DNA from: Patescibacteria group bacterium
GTDB taxonomy: Bacteria; Patescibacteriota; Patescibacteriia; 2-01-FULL-39-33
Assembly: GCA_041662745.1 (NCBI GenBank)
Contig: JBAZRV010000002.1
Location: 150,001-182,000 of the forward strand
Length of the DNA stretch: 32,000 nt
Direction of reading: 5' to 3'
In this document: piece by piece, positions 10,244 to 13,588 of the stretch
Layout of the letters: the number at the start of each line of letters is the position of its first letter
Position numbering within the stretch: position 1 is the first letter of the stretch
Made by a program: the position numbers and the translations under genes
The notes under the pieces: generated by a model
Seen by the model: only the letters and a program-made list of their open reading frames with translations
Database searches by the model: none
Told to the model about the DNA's origin: nothing

Positions 10244-10286
10244 TGTGGATAAACCCCTTGACAAAATATTAATATCGTGAGATAAT
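10244..10286 (+). promoter_or_regulatory. Promoter of the DGR target operon: TGTGGATAA, 5 nt, TTGACA, 17 nt, GATAAT
   Basis: TTGACA at 10258..10263 and GATAAT at 10281..10286. The upstream 9-mer TGTGGATAA (10244..10252) is the reverse complement of the DnaA-box consensus TTATCCACA. The same cassette occurs at 26983..27025. Confidence 0.6.
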
Positions 10287-10370
10287 CTATGCAGTACGTT
10301 ACATCTGGCAGGCCTTAGGCCGGAGAATAGTTCTCCGGTAGGAGGTAAGCCGCAACATGGGAGAAAGACC

Positions 10371-11057
10371 ATGAAAAAGAAGAGTGAGTTCTTGAGTGCC
10401 CTGGGTGTTATGTGGGAGATTTGGAAATCGCTGACGGACGAAATTTTGTCTTTAGGCGGCGATGACGAGGCGATTTGCCTTATTAAGGCGAATAATGATC
10501 TGCGAAGGCAAATGGCCGAATTGGTAATGGCTAAAGCGCGTGACATCAAAGACGCCGCCAAGCAAATCGTCTCGCCGTATCTGACGTCTGTCCATGACCT
10601 CGTCATTGACTTCAGTCAGGATCTCGGGCAGATGATTGCCGCCGGCAAGTATGACTGGACCAACTCCGACATTACCGCCGAGCATTTTCCTCTTAATGGA
10701 GCGGGTAAGCGGAAGGTCCGAGTCGAGTTGCTTCACTTCAATCAGTATTTCAAAAATGGCGATGAAGTGATTGCCAAACTGAAAGAAGTCAATAAGTGGC
10801 TGGCCCAGCAAGGAGCGAACTATCGCTATCGTTTCTCTCGCATTGAAGAGTTTTTGGCTTTGGGCGTGGTCCAACCCGGTCTGCAACGGCAATTTCCCAT
10901 TGCCGCTCTGGGCTCAATTTGGCACCGTGCCGGCCTCCGCGACTTCGCTTACCTCTACGGGTTTGGTGCGGAGCGCGACCTGCGCCTGCGCTGTCTTGAG
11001 TTTGACTTCGGCGGCCCTTGGCGGTTCGCTGTTGTCCGCGAGCATGCCTGCCGGTAG
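10371..11057 (+). CDS. DGR variable (target) protein 1, VR at the C-terminus
   Basis: 228 aa, a paralog of the next gene (GKYDW.NS.I....FP, NGDEVIA.LK, QRQFPIAALGSIWH). The C-terminal 40 aa are encoded by VR1. No obvious signal peptide or TM. Confidence 0.85.
   Translation: MKKKSEFLSALGVMWEIWKSLTDEILSLGGDDEAICLIKANNDLRRQMAELVMAKARDIKDAAKQIVSPYLTSVHDLVIDFSQDLGQMIAAGKYDWTNSDITAEHFPLNGAGKRKVRVELLHFNQYFKNGDEVIAKLKEVNKWLAQQGANYRYRFSRIEEFLALGVVQPGLQRQFPIAALGSIWHRAGLRDFAYLYGFGAERDLRLRCLEFDFGGPWRFAVVREHACR
10918..11039 (+). other. DGR variable region VR1 (122 nt)
   Basis: Aligned by hand to TR 12002..12123. 23 substitutions are all at TR adenines. Three further synonymous non-adenine differences occur in the last 20 nt (cgc/cgg, ttt/ttc, gcg/gct). 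Confidence 0.9.
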
Positions 11058-11066
11058 GCAGGCATG
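11043..11066 (+). promoter_or_regulatory. GC-rich hairpin 3 nt after VR1 (candidate DGR target-recognition element)
   Basis: catgcctgcc-ggta-ggcaggcatg (10-bp stem, 4-nt loop). The target-1 stop codon TAG (11055..11057) spans the loop/stem junction. Confidence 0.7.
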
Positions 11067-11069
11067 TTA

Positions 11070-11090
11070 CCTTGATTCCTTGAACCTTGA
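11070..11090 (+). repeat. Three CCTTGA hexamers downstream of the VR1 hairpin
   Basis: CCTTGA at 11070, 11078 and 11085. Confidence 0.6.
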
Positions 11091-11117
11091 CACCAAAATC
11101 GGAAAAAGGAGGACATC

Positions 11118-11729
11118 ATGAGAACTGTAAGTAAAACCGGAAACAAAAAAGTCAGAACTGGAACTATCTCCGCCATCACTGGCGCGATAATCTGCCAAGG
11201 CGGAAAAGCCAAGGACTTGACTGCGATTGTCAGAAATGATGAATTGCTCAAACAATTGGCCACGACCATTATCGAACTGTCCAAAAAGATCATTCAAGTC
11301 ATTGTTGACTGCACCATGTCGCTCGGCGATATGATCGACGCCGGCAAGTATGACTGGGTGAACTCGAACATCAACGCCAACAACTTCCCGATCAGCAGGA
11401 AGGGTAAGAAGGTGGTCAGCATTGAACTCTGGCATCCCAACAGGTATTTTAATAACGGCGATGAAGTGATTGCCGAGCTGAAAAAAACTAAACCCGGCTA
11501 TCGTTTTACTCAGATTGAAGAACTCCTGGCCTTAGGCGCGGTCCGACCCGATCTGCAACGGCAATTTCCCATTGCCGCTCTGGGCTCAATTTGGCACCCT
11601 GCCGGCGACCGCGACTTCGCTTTCCTCGACAGGCATGATGCGGAGCGCAACCTGTTCCTGGACTATCTTGAGCGTGACTTCAGCGACCGTTGGCGCTTTG
11701 CGGTTGTCCGCGAGCATGCCTGCCGGTAG
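11118..11729 (+). CDS. DGR variable (target) protein 2, VR at the C-terminus
   Basis: 203 aa, with AGGAGG 6 nt upstream of the ATG. It is a paralog of target 1. The C-terminal 40 aa are encoded by VR2. Confidence 0.85.
   Translation: MRTVSKTGNKKVRTGTISAITGAIICQGGKAKDLTAIVRNDELLKQLATTIIELSKKIIQVIVDCTMSLGDMIDAGKYDWVNSNINANNFPISRKGKKVVSIELWHPNRYFNNGDEVIAELKKTKPGYRFTQIEELLALGAVRPDLQRQFPIAALGSIWHPAGDRDFAFLDRHDAERNLFLDYLERDFSDRWRFAVVREHACR
11591..11712 (+). other. DGR variable region VR2 (122 nt)
   Basis: 15 differences from the TR, every one at a TR adenine. The adenine-free 3' 22 nt are identical to the TR. Confidence 0.92.
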
Positions 11730-11739
11730 GCAGGCATGT
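11716..11739 (+). promoter_or_regulatory. GC-rich hairpin 3 nt after VR2 (identical to the VR1 hairpin)
   Basis: catgcctgcc-ggta-ggcaggcatg. The stop TAG at 11727..11729 sits in the same position as in target 1. Confidence 0.7.
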
Positions 11740-11742
11740 TAC

Positions 11743-11771
11743 CTTGATTCCTTGAACCTTGACCCCTTGAA
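11743..11771 (+). repeat. Four CCTTGA hexamers downstream of the VR2 hairpin
   Basis: CCTTGA at 11743, 11751, 11758 and 11766. Confidence 0.6.
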
Positions 11772-11776
11772 TTTTC

Positions 11777-11814
11777 CGCGCGATGACCATAGTTATCGCG
11801 CGGCTTTTATTTTA
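11777..11814 (+). terminator. Rho-independent terminator after the target operon
   Basis: ccgcgcgat-gaccatagtt-atcgcgcgg followed by cttttatttt. A TATAAT at 11828..11833 follows and may drive TR transcription. Confidence 0.7.
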
Positions 11815-12001
11815 TCTAATTTTTTACTATAATAGAGCCAAGGGTTAATACTCCCGCGGCCACGGTTTCGGGATACCCGCAAAATAAACAAGATTGCTCG
11901 GCGTCTGATGTTGGCGGGTTTAAAGACCCCGAATAAAATACAGCCGGAAGATACGGCCTGGCTGTTCAACCGGCAGTGGCTACAGATGGCGTCAGACGAA
12001 T

Positions 12002-12123
12002 TTTGGCACCATGCCGGCAACCGCAACTTCGCTTACCTCAACAGGAATGATGCGAAGCGCAACCTGAACCTGAACTATCTTGAGAATGACTTCAACGACA
12101 ATTGGCGCTTTGCGGTTGTCCGC
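12002..12123 (+). other. DGR template repeat (TR), 122 nt
   Basis: Homologous to VR1 and VR2. It contains 31 adenines, including 10 AAY codons when read in the VR frame (GNRNFAYLNRNDAKRNLNLNYLENDFNDNW). The 3' 22 nt are adenine-free. Homology to the VRs stops at ...gttgtccgc. Confidence 0.92.
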
Positions 12124-12556
12124 TATCAATTTTGTTTTCCGTCCTCGCTGTTGGCGGGGATGTTTTTTCCAAACCGATTTTCCACGCATAGGCCAACCGT
12201 CCGATTTCCTCAATTTTAAGCGCCAAATCGCGGAATTTATTATCATTAAATAGCTTCATTTCCCAGCACAGCCGCAAATAAAATTTCAGCAGATCGATTT
12301 TTTTTATTGATTTTATTGCCGGTTTTAATTTTTTGTCTTTCGGCAGATATTGGGCGGTGGCCAGTATTTCCAATAGTTCCAGAAATATCTGATCCAGGCG
12401 GATGCCCAAGGTAAAGCGAGATGTTTTGGGAAAATTTTTTAACCAATCATGCCAAAGTTTGTAGGCAGCGATGGTTTTGCCCAGAACCAGTAAATTTCCC
12501 GTCGGGGGGGGGGATTTAAAGGATGAATTATGAGAAATAAGATCAGATTGAGTCAT
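12092..12556 (-). CDS. avd: Avd-like accessory protein (four-helix-bundle / 23S rRNA IVS protein family), start uncertain
   Basis: AYKLWHDWLKNFPKTSRFTLGIRLDQIFLELLEILATAQYLPK...IDLLKFYLRLCWEMKLF...LALKIEEIGRLAYAWK matches the four-helix-bundle family I recall next to CPR DGR RTs. It is on the opposite strand to the TR and RT. The 3' end overlaps the TR (12092..12123). The ATG 12556 start overlaps the RT start. Confidence 0.7.
   Translation of the reverse strand: MTQSDLISHNSSFKSPPPTGNLLVLGKTIAAYKLWHDWLKNFPKTSRFTLGIRLDQIFLELLEILATAQYLPKDKKLKPAIKSIKKIDLLKFYLRLCWEMKLFNDNKFRDLALKIEEIGRLAYAWKIGLEKTSPPTARTENKIDSGQPQSANCR
12504..12513. repeat. G10 homopolymer tract
   Basis: Ten consecutive G residues 16 nt upstream of the RT ATG (12530). 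On the minus strand it encodes PPP within the long form of the avd ORF. Confidence 0.9.
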
Positions 12557-13588
12557 AGTTTTGACGAGATTATTTGTCTTGATAATTTATTGGCGGCCTG
12601 GCGGGAATTCGTCCGTGGCAAAAGAGACAAGAAAGACGTGCAAGAATTCCAGTGGCAACTGATGGATAATCTTACAGTGCTTCATTGGAATTTGGCAAGC
12701 GGCGATTATTGCCATGGCGGCTATCAGGCCTTTAAGATTTGTGATCCCAAATCGCGGCAAATCCATAAGGCGTCGGTTCGGGACAGATTAGTCCATCATG
12801 CGATTTATCGGATTTTGTATCCGTTCTTTGATCGGACTTTCATCGCCGATTCTTATTCCTGCCGGCTGGGCAAGGGCACGCATAGGGCCTTGGCTCGGTT
12901 CAGTGAATTCGCTTACTCCGCCAGTCGGAACAATACCCGCACTTGCTGGGTTTTGAAGGGCGATATCAGGAAGTTTTTTGCCAACATTAATCATGGGATA
13001 TTGAAAGAGATTTTGGCCGAGTATATTCTAGATAAAAAGATTTTGGGGTTATTGGATGAAGTGATTGACAGCTTTCACTGTGTTAATGATAACCTGGATT
13101 CCTGCTTTCGCAGGAATGACAAGGGGAAGGATGAGGATGTCAGTGGTAGTAGAGGTCTGCCATTAGGCAATCTGACTTCGCAACTTTTAGTTAATATTTA
13201 CATGAATAGATTCGATCAATTTGTTAAGCATAAATTACAAGTCAAGTATTATATCCGCTATGCTGATGATTTCGTGATAATATCTAATGACAAAGGAGAT
13301 CTAATTCGATTATTGGAGTTGATTAGCAATTATTTGAAACAAGAACTGAAATTGGAGCTTCATGATGATAAAATTTCCATTCGCACTCTTAGTTCAAGCA
13401 TTGATTTCTTGGGCTGGATTAATTTTCCCCGTCATCGTGTTTTACGGACAAAAACTAAAAGGAGGATGTTTAGGAGATTGCGGGATAATTTTAGGTCAGA
13501 AGCGGTTAATTCGTATATCGGCCTGCTAAGTCATGGCAATGCTTATGGATTGCAAAAAAAGATTGCTAAATTAGCTGATTTTTGTTAG
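12530..13588 (+). CDS. DGR reverse transcriptase
   Basis: 352 aa. RT motifs: RQIHKASVRDRLVHHAIY, SYSCRLGKGTH, VLKGDIRKFFANINH, the DGR-type motif 4 LPLGNLTSQLLVNIYMN, the catalytic YADD (YIRYADDFVII), and IDFLGW. RBS AAAGGA upstream. Confidence 0.92.
   Translation: MRNKIRLSHSFDEIICLDNLLAAWREFVRGKRDKKDVQEFQWQLMDNLTVLHWNLASGDYCHGGYQAFKICDPKSRQIHKASVRDRLVHHAIYRILYPFFDRTFIADSYSCRLGKGTHRALARFSEFAYSASRNNTRTCWVLKGDIRKFFANINHGILKEILAEYILDKKILGLLDEVIDSFHCVNDNLDSCFRRNDKGKDEDVSGSRGLPLGNLTSQLLVNIYMNRFDQFVKHKLQVKYYIRYADDFVIISNDKGDLIRLLELISNYLKQELKLELHDDKISIRTLSSSIDFLGWINFPRHRVLRTKTKRRMFRRLRDNFRSEAVNSYIGLLSHGNAYGLQKKIAKLADFC
13089..13122. repeat. Hairpin repeat copy 1, in frame inside the RT ORF
   Basis: ataacctggattcctg-ctttcg-caggaatgacaa. 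It shares its 16-nt 5' and 12-nt 3' parts with 22970..23004 and encodes ..NLDSCFRRNDK.. Confidence 0.75.

What the first reader, a model, noticed from the sequence alone, without database searches (positions are those of the whole stretch)
10244..13588. Complete diversity-generating retroelement: two VR-bearing targets, TR, Avd-like gene and DGR-type RT
Seen directly: a 122-nt segment occurs three times, as VR1 (10918..11039), VR2 (11591..11712) and TR (12002..12123). In my hand alignment all 15 TR/VR2 differences fall on TR adenines. 23 of the 26 TR/VR1 differences also fall on TR adenines. The TR has 31 adenines, including 10 AAY codons in the VR reading frame, and an adenine-free 22-nt 3' end that is invariant in VR2. 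Downstream lies an RT with the DGR-typical LGNLTSQ motif-4 signature and a YADD box, plus a four-helix-bundle Avd-like gene. Adenine-specific TR-to-VR mutagenesis is the defining DGR signature, established for Bordetella phage BPP-1 and for many CPR genomes. The small target proteins have no signal peptide or TM that I can see. Their scaffold (GKYDW.NS.I..FP...NGDEVIA.LK...QRQFPIAALGSIWH) is not a family I recognise, so the ligand and biology are open. The cassette has its own promoter and terminators and sits between a ccdA-like and a lutAB-like gene.
Basis: partly seen in the sequence, partly recalled or inferred. Interest (0 to 1): 0.9.

Follow-up and report, generated by a model that had tools for sequence, protein, structure and literature searches.

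The report
Patescibacterial DGR with two targets
This is a genuine, complete diversity-generating retroelement in the chromosome of a tiny uncultured (Patescibacteria/CPR) bacterium. It is an ordinary member of a well-described CPR type, but comparing it with 80 relatives showed a conserved structured RNA in front of the template that I could not find described.

Summary
VR1 (10918-11039) differs at 26, of which 23 are adenines (p=6e-10 and 2e-14). The RT is closest to the Bordetella phage DGR RT. Avd is real but lies on the minus strand.

The cassette is a typical CPR DGR: Wu et al. architecture B3, TR-(avd)-RT, and Roux et al. clade 2. All 80 related loci with upstream sequence have the same layout. 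The targets belong to a large family with no Pfam model (7,872 cluster representatives). They are soluble and have a weakly C-type-lectin-like fold.

VRs follow their own TR at non-A positions, so template-to-target transfer has occurred since these lineages diverged. This is a new member of a known kind, not a 0.9 finding.

Three features appear undescribed:
- The TR sits in its own roughly 330-nt RNA, with a conserved promoter, a covariation-supported 5' domain and a terminator. A 5' segment pairs with the TR 3' flank. The order of elements reads as a circular permutation of the phage BPP-1 DGR RNA.
- Arrays of 8-nt repeats lie downstream of the VRs.
- A conserved poly-G tract lies between avd and RT.

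The function of all three is inferred, not shown.

The parts
10258..10286 (+). Promoter-like site upstream of target 1 (TTGACA-17-GATAAT, with TG)
   Evidence: 11 of 12 matches to the consensus.
10357..10374 (+). 5-codon upstream ORF (MGERP-stop). Its TGA overlaps the target-1 ATG (ATGA). It is preceded by AGGAGG at 10340-10345.
   Evidence: Read directly from the sequence. The same uORF (MGEKP) is present in L001.
10371..11057 (+). Target gene 1 (228 aa), with VR1 at its 3' end
   Evidence: (P0012).
10918..11039 (+). VR1
   Evidence: 26 mismatches to TR, 23 of them at A. VR1 follows the window TR at non-A positions 38-101 but keeps the ancestral state at positions 107-113.
11043..11066 (+). 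GC-rich hairpin (10-bp stem, GGTA loop) starting 3 nt after VR1. It contains the stop codon.
   Evidence: -20.2 kcal/mol. Absent in L002.
11068..11094 (+). Array of 8-nt-period CCTTGA repeats downstream of VR1
11118..11729 (+). Target gene 2 (203 aa), with VR2 at its 3' end
   Evidence: (P0001).
11590..11711 (+). VR2
   Evidence: 15 mismatches, all at TR adenines; matches the window TR at 7 of 7 lineage-specific non-A positions.
11715..11738 (+). GC-rich hairpin after VR2, identical to the one after VR1
11741..11771 (+). Array of 8-nt-period CCTTGA repeats downstream of VR2
11776..11813 (+). Intrinsic terminator of the target operon
   Evidence: 12-bp stem followed by a T-run.
11828..11833 (+). 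Conserved -10 box (TATAAT) of the TR RNA
   Evidence: T1, A2 and T6 are invariant in 57 loci.
11840..12001 (+). Structured 5' domain of the TR RNA. Its elements are: hairpin about 11853-11880; primer-like strand 11887-11896; helix 11901-11912 with 11988-11999; hairpin 11915-11930; A-rich linker; hairpin 11943-11947 with 11970-11974; invariant GUG 11976-11978.
   Evidence: 44 of 48 pairs have compensatory changes; 89.6% of cells paired against 39-48% in slid controls; a covariance model built without this lineage hits 11883-12002 at E 4e-13; no Rfam family matches.
12002..12123 (+). Template repeat (TR)
   Evidence: 20 variable codons, about 1e18 protein variants.
12127..12136 (+). Segment 3 nt after the TR that pairs with 11887-11896 (long-range helix)
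   Evidence: 80.7% paired against 45-49% in slid controls, covariation score 0.44 against 0.16 or less; cognate duplexes -6.3 against non-cognate -3.4 kcal/mol, p 8e-10.
12140..12168 (+). Hairpin plus T6: intrinsic terminator of the TR RNA and possible Avd-binding stem-loop. It lies inside the avd 3' coding region on the other strand.
   Evidence: A hairpin plus U-run is present at this place in the related loci.
12092..12556 (-). avd accessory gene. The conserved core is 12152-12496. The true start is uncertain: there is no canonical start codon near the conserved N-terminus.
   Evidence: (PF22296, 44.4 bits, above the cut-off), (antisense in 80 of 80 loci).
12504..12513 (.). G10 tract in the avd/RT divergent gap. 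It ends 16 nt before the RT ATG.
   Evidence: a G6-G14 tract is found in 64 of 79 loci.
12530..13588 (+). DGR reverse transcriptase (352 aa)

Best explanation
This is a complete chromosomal diversity-generating retroelement of the Patescibacteria-specific lineage. Its layout is targets, TR, antisense avd, RT.

Proposed mechanism. The TR is transcribed as its own small RNA of about 330 nt, from the conserved -10 box at 11828 to the terminator at 12140-12168. The RT, together with Avd, copies this RNA into cDNA and misincorporates opposite the 31 template adenines. The cDNA then replaces the VR at the 3' end of two paralogous genes, T1 and T2. Only about 20 codons on one face of a C-terminal, C-type-lectin-like beta-hairpin are rewritten, giving about 1e18 possible variants per target. 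Transfer stops at an A-free 3' boundary between TR positions 101 and 107.

The targets are small soluble proteins. They consist of an N-terminal three-helix domain and a variable ligand-binding domain, with no signal peptide. Their ligand is unknown.

For cDNA priming I propose the following. The structured domain 5' of the TR plays the role that the spacer downstream of the TR plays in phage BPP-1. Segment 11887-11896 pairs with 12127-12136, just 3' of the TR, and so forms the primer:template duplex. The helix 11901-11912/11988-11999, which abuts the TR 5' end, acts as the stop for reverse transcription.

Shown here: the anatomy, the adenine-specific pattern, transfer from cognate TR to VR, the RNA base pairs, and conservation across relatives.
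Inferred: transcription limits, the priming site, the roles of the RNA helices, and the targets' ligand-binding function.
For: Adenine-specific TR/VR differences: 15 of 15 for VR2 and 23 of 26 for VR1.

RT identity: the best solved relative is bRT of BPP-1 (131 bits), against 69 bits for the best group II RT. The motifs LGNLTSQ and YADD are present.

Avd: Pfam bAvd scores above its cut-off.

Layout: the same arrangement, with antisense avd, is found in all 80 related CPR loci that have upstream sequence. This matches architecture B3, TR-(avd)-RT, reported for 90% of CPR DGRs (PMC5758913), and the CPR-restricted clade 2 whose targets lack recognisable domains (PMC8144416).

Transfer from TR to VR: VRs share the lineage-specific non-A substitutions of their own TR. 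The counts are 7 of 7 for window VR2, 7 of 7 for both L002 VRs, and 8 of 9 for the L004 VR and for the remote L001 VR2.

Target model: pLDDT 89.4, and the top PDB and viral fold matches are C-type-lectin-like or DUF1566 domains. NLNLN-type alternation of variable codons falls on predicted beta-strands.

RNA:
- A conserved TATAAT box and a terminator flank the TR.
- 44 of 48 RNAalifold pairs have compensatory changes.
- 32 hand-checked pairs are 89.6% paired against 39-48% in slid controls, and 0 of 500 shuffles reach the observed value.
- The long-range helix passes its own controls.
- A model built without this lineage finds the window element once, abutting the TR, at E 4e-13, and finds nothing in the TR-less locus L001.
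- The order of elements matches the BPP-1 RNA as described in bioRxiv 10.1101/2023.10.23.563531 after a circular permutation.
Against: - No population data were available: two metagenome scans returned nothing. Ongoing diversification in this organism is therefore not shown.
- The fold match to C-type lectins is weak (best E 9.7e-3, TM about 0.5). No solved DGR variable protein appears in the top 50, and no Pfam lectin, FGE or DUF1566 model hits any of 37 family members.
- NCBIfam's best RT hit is the group II intron model. It scores 139.6 bits, far below its 300-bit cut-off.
- The avd start codon is unclear.
- I identified the long-range helix by eye on the same sequences used to score it.
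- Handa et al. report that CPR DGRs have BPP-1-like elements, including an up/downstream stop duplex. Their analysis used 40 nt upstream and 100 nt downstream of the TR, which need not agree with my assignment.
- No transcript ends, priming site or protein-RNA contact has been measured.
Confidence: 0.9

Rival explanations
1. Fossil DGR. The cassette once diversified T1 and T2 but is no longer active. The VR/TR differences are frozen relics.
For: No population variation could be retrieved. VR1 keeps three non-TR bases in its 3' end. In the related genome the T1 orthologue's VR has decayed, with an indel and many non-A differences (L001). The avd gene has no obvious canonical start codon.
Against: RT, avd, both targets, the promoter, the RNA domain and the terminator are all intact. 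VR2 is identical to TR at every non-A position, including 7 lineage-specific substitutions. VR1 follows the window TR at 4 such positions, so both were rewritten after the split from the L002 lineage. The three VR1 differences lie beyond the inferred transfer boundary and are synonymous. The lack of a canonical avd start codon is common across the clade, so it is not a sign of decay in this locus.
Confidence: 0.12
2. The conserved region 5' of the TR is a structured RNA, but it has nothing to do with priming. It could be a regulatory leader, a stability element or an RNA-chaperone site. Priming would then use sequence downstream of the TR, in antisense avd, as in BPP-1.
For: Handa et al. report BPP-1-like stem-loops and up/downstream duplexes in CPR DGRs from 40 nt upstream plus 100 nt downstream of the TR. 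A hairpin does follow the TR here. My functional assignment rests only on the order of elements.
Against: The hairpin after the TR is followed by a U-run in this and related loci, so the RNA probably ends there. Sequence beyond it is constrained by avd coding. The 5' segment co-varies specifically with the 10 nt immediately 3' of the TR, which is the geometry of a primer:template duplex. The strongest helix abuts the TR 5' end, where reverse transcription must stop.
Confidence: 0.3
3. This is not a DGR. The three repeats are ordinary paralogous gene ends plus a pseudogene fragment, next to an unrelated group II intron, retron or defence RT.
For: NCBIfam's top RT hit is the group II intron RT/maturase model, with weaker hits to Drt and retron models.
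Against: All those hits are far below their cut-offs. No group II intron or retron RNA is found by Rfam. The mismatch pattern is adenine-specific at p<1e-9. Avd is present. The RT is twice as similar to bRT as to any group II RT. The whole arrangement recurs in 80 loci, each with its own A-biased TR/VR pair.
Confidence: 0.01

Closest known systems
CPR/Patescibacteria DGRs: architecture B3, TR-(avd)-RT, of Wu et al. 2018 (PMC5758913); DGR clade 2 of Roux et al. 2021 (PMC8144416)
   Same: The gene order and the antisense avd are the same. The RT is 54-76% identical to thousands of CPR RTs. The location is cellular and chromosomal. The targets are small, with no TM segment and no recognisable domain. 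Adenine mutagenesis and AAY-rich TRs are shared.
   Different: Nothing essential differs. Two tandem targets are less common: most of the 65 related loci with a detected TR/VR pair showed one VR within reach. This lineage's 5' RNA domain lacks the first hairpin module found in most relatives. It also has a GC hairpin after each VR that its closest relative lacks.
Bordetella phage BPP-1 DGR (mtd-avd-TR-brt); bRT-Avd:RNA structure, PDB 8ub7 series
   Same: The RT is homologous (E 5.9e-37) and an Avd homologue is present. Adenine-specific mutagenesis, a C-terminal VR, an A-free boundary at the VR 3' end and a hairpin after the VR are shared. The RNA elements occur in the same relative order: primer strand, stop-duplex strand, stem-loop, A-rich single strand, stem.
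   Different: avd is antisense and lies between TR and RT. The RNA elements that lie downstream of the TR in BPP-1 (the spacer, Rfam RT-10) lie upstream of the TR here. Only the primer-complement and a terminator hairpin lie downstream, which amounts to a circular permutation. There is no Rfam RT-motif match. The element is cellular, not phage-borne. The target is not a tail fibre.
C-type-lectin-fold DGR variable proteins (Mtd, TvpA, and the FGE-sulfatase and DUF1566 classes)
   Same: The VR is C-terminal and ends in a conserved W/R-F-x-x-V-R motif. The predicted topology is beta-alpha-alpha-beta-beta-beta-beta. The best fold matches are C-type-lectin-like and DUF1566 domains.
   Different: There is no sequence or profile match to any Pfam lectin, FGE or DUF1566 family or to any PDB chain. 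The variable domain is only about 145 aa and is joined to a three-helix N-terminal domain. Fold scores are weak.
DGRs with remote or multiple targets (Treponema, Legionella and cyanobacterial DGRs, as reviewed in PMC5758913)
   Same: One TR serves two VRs here. In the related Buchananbacteria MAG, the T2 orthologue on one contig matches the TR on another contig, with 22 of 23 differences at A.
   Different: None in principle.

Membership tests
Diversity-generating retroelement | A TR/VR repeat pair whose differences fall on TR adenines | tested here: met
   15 of 15 for VR2 and 23 of 26 for VR1; p 6e-10 and 2e-14.
Diversity-generating retroelement | An RT of the DGR lineage, with motif 4 [I/L]GxxxSQ and closest to bRT | tested here: met
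   8ub7_A at E 5.9e-37 against group II at 4.5e-18. LPLGNLTSQ and YADD are present in the sequence. No full RT phylogeny was built.
Diversity-generating retroelement | The VR lies at the 3' end of a protein-coding target, in frame, with TR adenines at codon positions 1 and 2 | tested here: met
   10 AAY codons, and only one codon can mutate to a stop.
Diversity-generating retroelement | Accessory variability determinant (Avd) | tested here: met
   PF22296 at 44.4 bits against a cut-off of 40. NF033474 at 51.9 bits, below its cut-off of 80.
Diversity-generating retroelement | Directional information transfer from TR to VR with a 3' boundary (IMH-like) | tested here: met
   VRs carry their own TR's non-A substitutions. 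VR1 switches to the ancestral state between TR positions 101 and 107.
Diversity-generating retroelement | Ongoing VR hypervariation within a population | not testable with these tools
   Searches returned no contigs. The 90% clusters of T1 and T2 have a single member each.
CPR DGR, architecture B3 TR-(avd)-RT | avd on the opposite strand, between TR and RT | tested here: met
   for the window; 80 of 80 related loci. Definition taken from PMC5758913.
C-type-lectin-fold variable protein | A CLec fold carrying the VR on a solvent-exposed face | tested here: inconclusive
C-type-lectin-fold variable protein | Sequence membership of Pfam FGE-sulfatase, DUF1566 or Lectin_C | tested here: not met
   no such hit in any of 37 family members, even at E up to 5.
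BPP-1-type DGR RNA (Rfam RT-10 / spacer downstream of the TR) | A structured spacer between TR and RT that matches the RT-10 model | tested here: not met
   no RT-motif hit at E up to 10 in 11700-12600. The TR-RT interval is antisense avd.
Group II intron or retron RT | Intron or msr/msd RNA next to the RT, and a score above the family cut-off | tested here: not met
   no such RNA; 139.6 bits against a cut-off of 300 for group II, and 51 against 235 for the retron model.

The most novel reading that the evidence does not exclude
CPR (B3-type) DGRs use a circularly permuted DGR RNA. The primer strand, the reverse-transcription stop duplex, the A-rich linker and the RT-binding stem all sit 5' of the TR, on a short self-contained transcript. 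cDNA synthesis is primed in cis from this 5' domain onto the 10 nt just 3' of the TR.

Two further clade-wide elements would then be the missing control and targeting parts:
- The 8-nt-period CCTTGA/CTTTGA arrays downstream of every VR would be the target-site recognition signal for cDNA integration.
- The G6-G14 tract between avd and RT would be a length-variable switch for RT and/or Avd expression.
Probability: 0.4. Interest if true: 0.7.

Novelty: new member of a known kind. Interest (0 to 1): 0.5.

Why it matters
The cassette itself adds one more example to thousands of known CPR DGRs.

The comparison it prompted has more value. How DGRs with an antisense avd (about 90% of CPR DGRs) prime and stop reverse transcription has not been worked out, as far as I could find. 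How any DGR finds its VR for cDNA integration is, to my knowledge, still an open question.

This work gives a covariation-supported RNA model with named nucleotides, and two conserved DNA elements at defined positions. Both can be tested directly in reconstituted systems.

The target family is very large (7,872 cluster representatives), unannotated, soluble and apparently intracellular. It is a concrete handle on what hypervariable proteins do in ultra-small symbiotic bacteria.

Tried and rejected
- Two exact-pattern scans of metagenome contigs, one with the VR 5' flank and one with the TR 5' half, aimed at finding population variants. Both returned nothing.
- Profile search of the target family against PDB sequences gave only noise.
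- Pfam scans of 37 family members and of 10 long multi-domain members gave no informative domain.
- RNAalifold on a MAFFT alignment of the TR 3' flank predicted nothing, because the hairpin arms were misaligned. I therefore judged that hairpin per sequence and left it out of the covariation counts.
- I considered that the 8-nt repeats might pair with the UUCAAAGG loop of the 5' RNA domain. L065 has a 10-nt match, but L009, L024 and L053 do not, so I dropped the idea.
- I considered the G-tract as a Shine-Dalgarno sequence for the RT. The spacing (13-20 nt) is too long in most loci, and many loci have their own AAAGGA. In a subset, a -10-like hexamer follows the tract directly. This remains unresolved.
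- Paul et al. 2017 (Nat Microbiol) and the 2026 'Minerva' preprint could not be read. I therefore cannot exclude that either describes the 5' RNA domain.

Full report
**Observation.** An ungapped computed alignment confirms three copies of a 122-nt segment.
- The TR (12002-12123) has 31 A.
- VR1 (10918-11039) differs at 26 positions, 23 of them TR adenines.
- VR2 differs at 15 positions, all TR adenines.
- The hypergeometric probabilities are about 2e-14 and 6e-10.
- A is replaced by G, C and T.
- The TR has 10 AAY codons in the VR frame and an A-free 22-nt 3' end identical in VR2.
- Twenty codons are variable, giving about 1e18 protein variants, and only one codon can become a stop.

**Genes.** Both VRs end ORFs: T1 (10371-11057, 228 aa) and T2 (11118-11729, 203 aa).

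The RT (12530-13588) has an RVT_1 domain and the motifs LPLGNLTSQ and YADD. Its best solved relative is the BPP-1 DGR RT (8ub7_A, E 5.9e-37, 131 bits), against 69 bits for the best group II intron RT. NCBIfam's group II, Drt and retron models score far below their cut-offs. Rfam finds no intron or retron RNA.

Avd is real (PF22296 above its cut-off; NF033474 below its cut-off). It is encoded on the minus strand (12092-12556), between TR and RT, and its 3' end overlaps the TR 3' end.

The source is a Patescibacteria MAG, where the proteins are annotated as hypothetical.

**How ordinary is it?**
- The RT has thousands of CPR relatives at about 60% identity or more.
- I fetched 80 related genome loci. 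Avd is antisense and directly upstream of the RT in all 80 loci that have upstream sequence.
- In 65 loci an A-biased TR/VR pair was detected in the same places. The median distances are 345 nt from VR end to TR start, and 7 nt from the TR end to the avd stop codon.
- This is architecture B3, TR-(avd)-RT, which Wu et al. found in 90% of CPR DGRs (PMC5758913).

The cassette is therefore a new member of a known kind.

**Evidence that it has worked.** Three related elements were compared: the window, L002 (same layout and same flanking lutAB-like genes) and L004. Their TRs differ from one another only at non-A positions, apart from one A/G difference between the window and L004, and each VR carries the substitutions of its own TR.
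- Window VR2: 7 of 7.
- Both L002 VRs: 7 of 7.
- L004 VR: 8 of 9.

Window VR1 follows the window TR at positions 38, 63, 77 and 101. At positions 107, 110 and 113 it keeps the L002-like state. They lie beyond the 3' limit of transfer, which maps that limit to 12102-12108. This is an IMH-like boundary.

In a Buchananbacteria MAG (locus-tag prefix WCT16) the syntenic T1/T2 pair (L001) has no TR, avd or RT beside it. Its T2 VR nevertheless matches the TR on another contig (L004), with 22 of 23 differences at A. That makes it a remote target. The T1 VR in that genome has decayed.

Ongoing variation within the window's own population could not be tested.

**The targets.** Neither protein has a TM segment or a hydrophobic N-terminus. 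Neither matches Pfam, NCBIfam or PDB by sequence.

The family is large: 7,872 representatives of 50%-identity clusters at E<=1e-3 and 1,694 at <=1e-30. Some members carry two or three copies of the domain. The long members carry no informative extra domain.

An AlphaFold model built on 37 homologues is confident (pLDDT 89.4). It shows three N-terminal helices and then a beta-alpha-alpha-beta-beta-beta-beta domain. Foldseek's best PDB hits are C-type-lectin-like domains (probability 0.99, E 9.7e-3, TM 0.47-0.51). The best meaningful viral hit is a DUF1566 protein. The variable codons alternate (NLNLN) along the last predicted beta-hairpin, consistent with one exposed face.

A C-type-lectin-like variable domain is therefore supported but not proven. 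The ligand is unknown.

**The TR RNA.** The interval between the target terminator (11776-11803) and the TR is conserved across the clade. It starts with a -10 box (TATAAT, 11828-11833) whose T1, A2 and T6 are invariant in 57 loci.
- RNAalifold predicts 48 pairs, of which 44 have compensatory changes.
- On a second alignment that joins this region to the TR 3' flank (A3, 52 loci), 32 pairs that I checked by hand are 89.6% paired. Slid controls give 39-48%. The covariation score is 0.66 against 0.20 or less, and 0 of 500 shuffles reach the observed value.
- The strongest helix (11901-11912 with 11988-11999; 97% paired) ends 2 nt before the TR.
- A long-range helix joins 11887-11896 to 12127-12136, 3 nt after the TR/VR homology ends. 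It is 80.7% paired against 45-49% in controls, with covariation 0.44 against 0.16 or less. Cognate duplexes are more stable than non-cognate ones (-6.3 against -3.4 kcal/mol, p 8e-10).
- A hairpin plus U-run follows directly (12140-12168). It is present in the relatives too and lies inside the avd coding region on the other strand.
- A covariance model built without the window lineage finds exactly one match in the window (11883-12002, 67.8 bits, E 4e-13). It finds one each in L002 and L004 and none in the TR-less L001.
- No Rfam family matches, including the RT-1 to RT-19 motifs of Weinberg et al. (PMC5737381), even at E up to 10.

**Interpretation of the RNA (inference).** In BPP-1 the RNA is ordered as follows (bioRxiv 10.1101/2023.10.23.563531):
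1. upstream strand
2. TR
3. Avd-binding stem-loop
4. primer strand, which pairs with the TR 3' end
5. stop-duplex strand, which pairs with the upstream strand
6. stem-loop
7. adenosines
8. single-stranded 'thumb ring'
9. RT-binding stem

In the CPR elements the order is:
1. extra hairpins
2. A-rich primer-like strand
3. helix strand a
4. stem-loop
5. A-rich single strand
6. stem
7. helix strand b
8. TR
9. complement of the primer-like strand
10. stem-loop plus U-run

This is the BPP-1 order after a circular permutation. I therefore propose that the 5' domain supplies the primer and the stop. I also propose that the TR RNA is a self-contained transcript of about 330 nt.

Handa et al. examined only 40 nt upstream and 100 nt downstream of the TR, so they would not have seen this domain. 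I could not read Paul et al. 2017, so I cannot rule out prior description there.

**Other conserved features.**
- Downstream of the VRs, but not of the TR, there are arrays of 8-nt-period motifs (CCTTGA, CTTTGA, CTTAGA). In the window they are at 11068-11094 and 11741-11771. Across loci, the core 5-mers are enriched 12-20-fold. The median is 4 motifs per 75 nt against 0.9 expected, and the modal spacings are 8 and 16 nt.
- The GC hairpin after each VR is specific to this lineage.
- A G6-G14 tract (G10 at 12504-12513) occupies the small gap between avd and RT in 64 of 79 loci. These tracts account for nearly all G/C runs of 8 or more in 683 kb.
- Among the 16 loci inspected, several avd genes have no canonical start codon between an upstream stop and the conserved N-terminus.
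- I found no mention of either the repeat arrays or the G-tract in the papers I could search.

**Verdict.** The cassette is a standard CPR DGR, so the finding as given is of modest interest. The clade-wide RNA architecture and the two DNA elements found along the way raise the overall interest to about 0.5. They are testable, but their functions are inferred.

Noticed in passing
window 11840-12001 with 12127-12168; A2, A3 and A4 alignments of L005-L081: A conserved, covariation-supported structured RNA lies directly 5' of the TR in CPR DGRs. It includes a long-range helix to the TR 3' flank and has its own -10 box and terminator. It is not in Rfam. The window lineage lacks the first hairpin module that most relatives have.
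   Followed up: yes
window 11068-11094 and 11741-11771; 75 nt downstream of the VR in 64 loci: Arrays of 8-nt-period CCTTGA/CTTTGA/CTTAGA motifs follow the VRs, but not the TR, across different target families. They are enriched 12-20-fold over locus background. Their function is unknown; target-site recognition is one candidate.
   Followed up: partly
window 12504-12513; the avd-RT gap of L002-L084: A poly-G tract (G6-G14, most often G10) is conserved in 64 of 79 loci between the divergent avd and RT genes. In a subset it is followed directly by a -10-like hexamer, with the RT ATG 7 nt later, which would suggest a leaderless RT mRNA. The length differs between loci.
   Followed up: partly
window 12440-12556 (minus strand); L008, L014, L016 and others: Several avd genes, among the 16 loci inspected, have no ATG, GTG or TTG between an in-frame upstream stop and the conserved Avd N-terminus. 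In the window, the only canonical start (12556) overlaps the RT start on the other strand and reads through the C10 tract.
   Followed up: partly
window 10357-10374; L001 5258-5275: A five-codon upstream ORF (MGERP, or MGEKP in L001) has a strong AGGAGG, and its stop codon overlaps the T1 start codon (ATGA). This suggests translational coupling. It sits in a conserved leader that contains a hairpin.
   Followed up: no
L001 5272-6618 and L004 6001-8491 (Buchananbacteria MAG, locus-tag prefix WCT16): In a related genome the T1/T2 pair sits at the syntenic site, after the ZIP transporter gene, without TR, avd, RT, lutAB-like or DsbD-like genes. Its T2 VR is a remote target of a DGR on another contig. 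Its T1 VR has decayed, with a 3-nt indel and non-A changes.
   Followed up: yes
P0222 (490 aa), P0021 (355 aa), P0226, P0239, P0273: Some members of the target family carry two or three tandem copies of the variable-domain scaffold in one protein.
   Followed up: no
window 5425-5495 and 5501-5574: Two adjacent tRNA genes lie on the + strand. A 494-aa minus-strand ORF (5548-7032) overlaps the second one, so its start is probably called too far upstream (too long).
   Followed up: no
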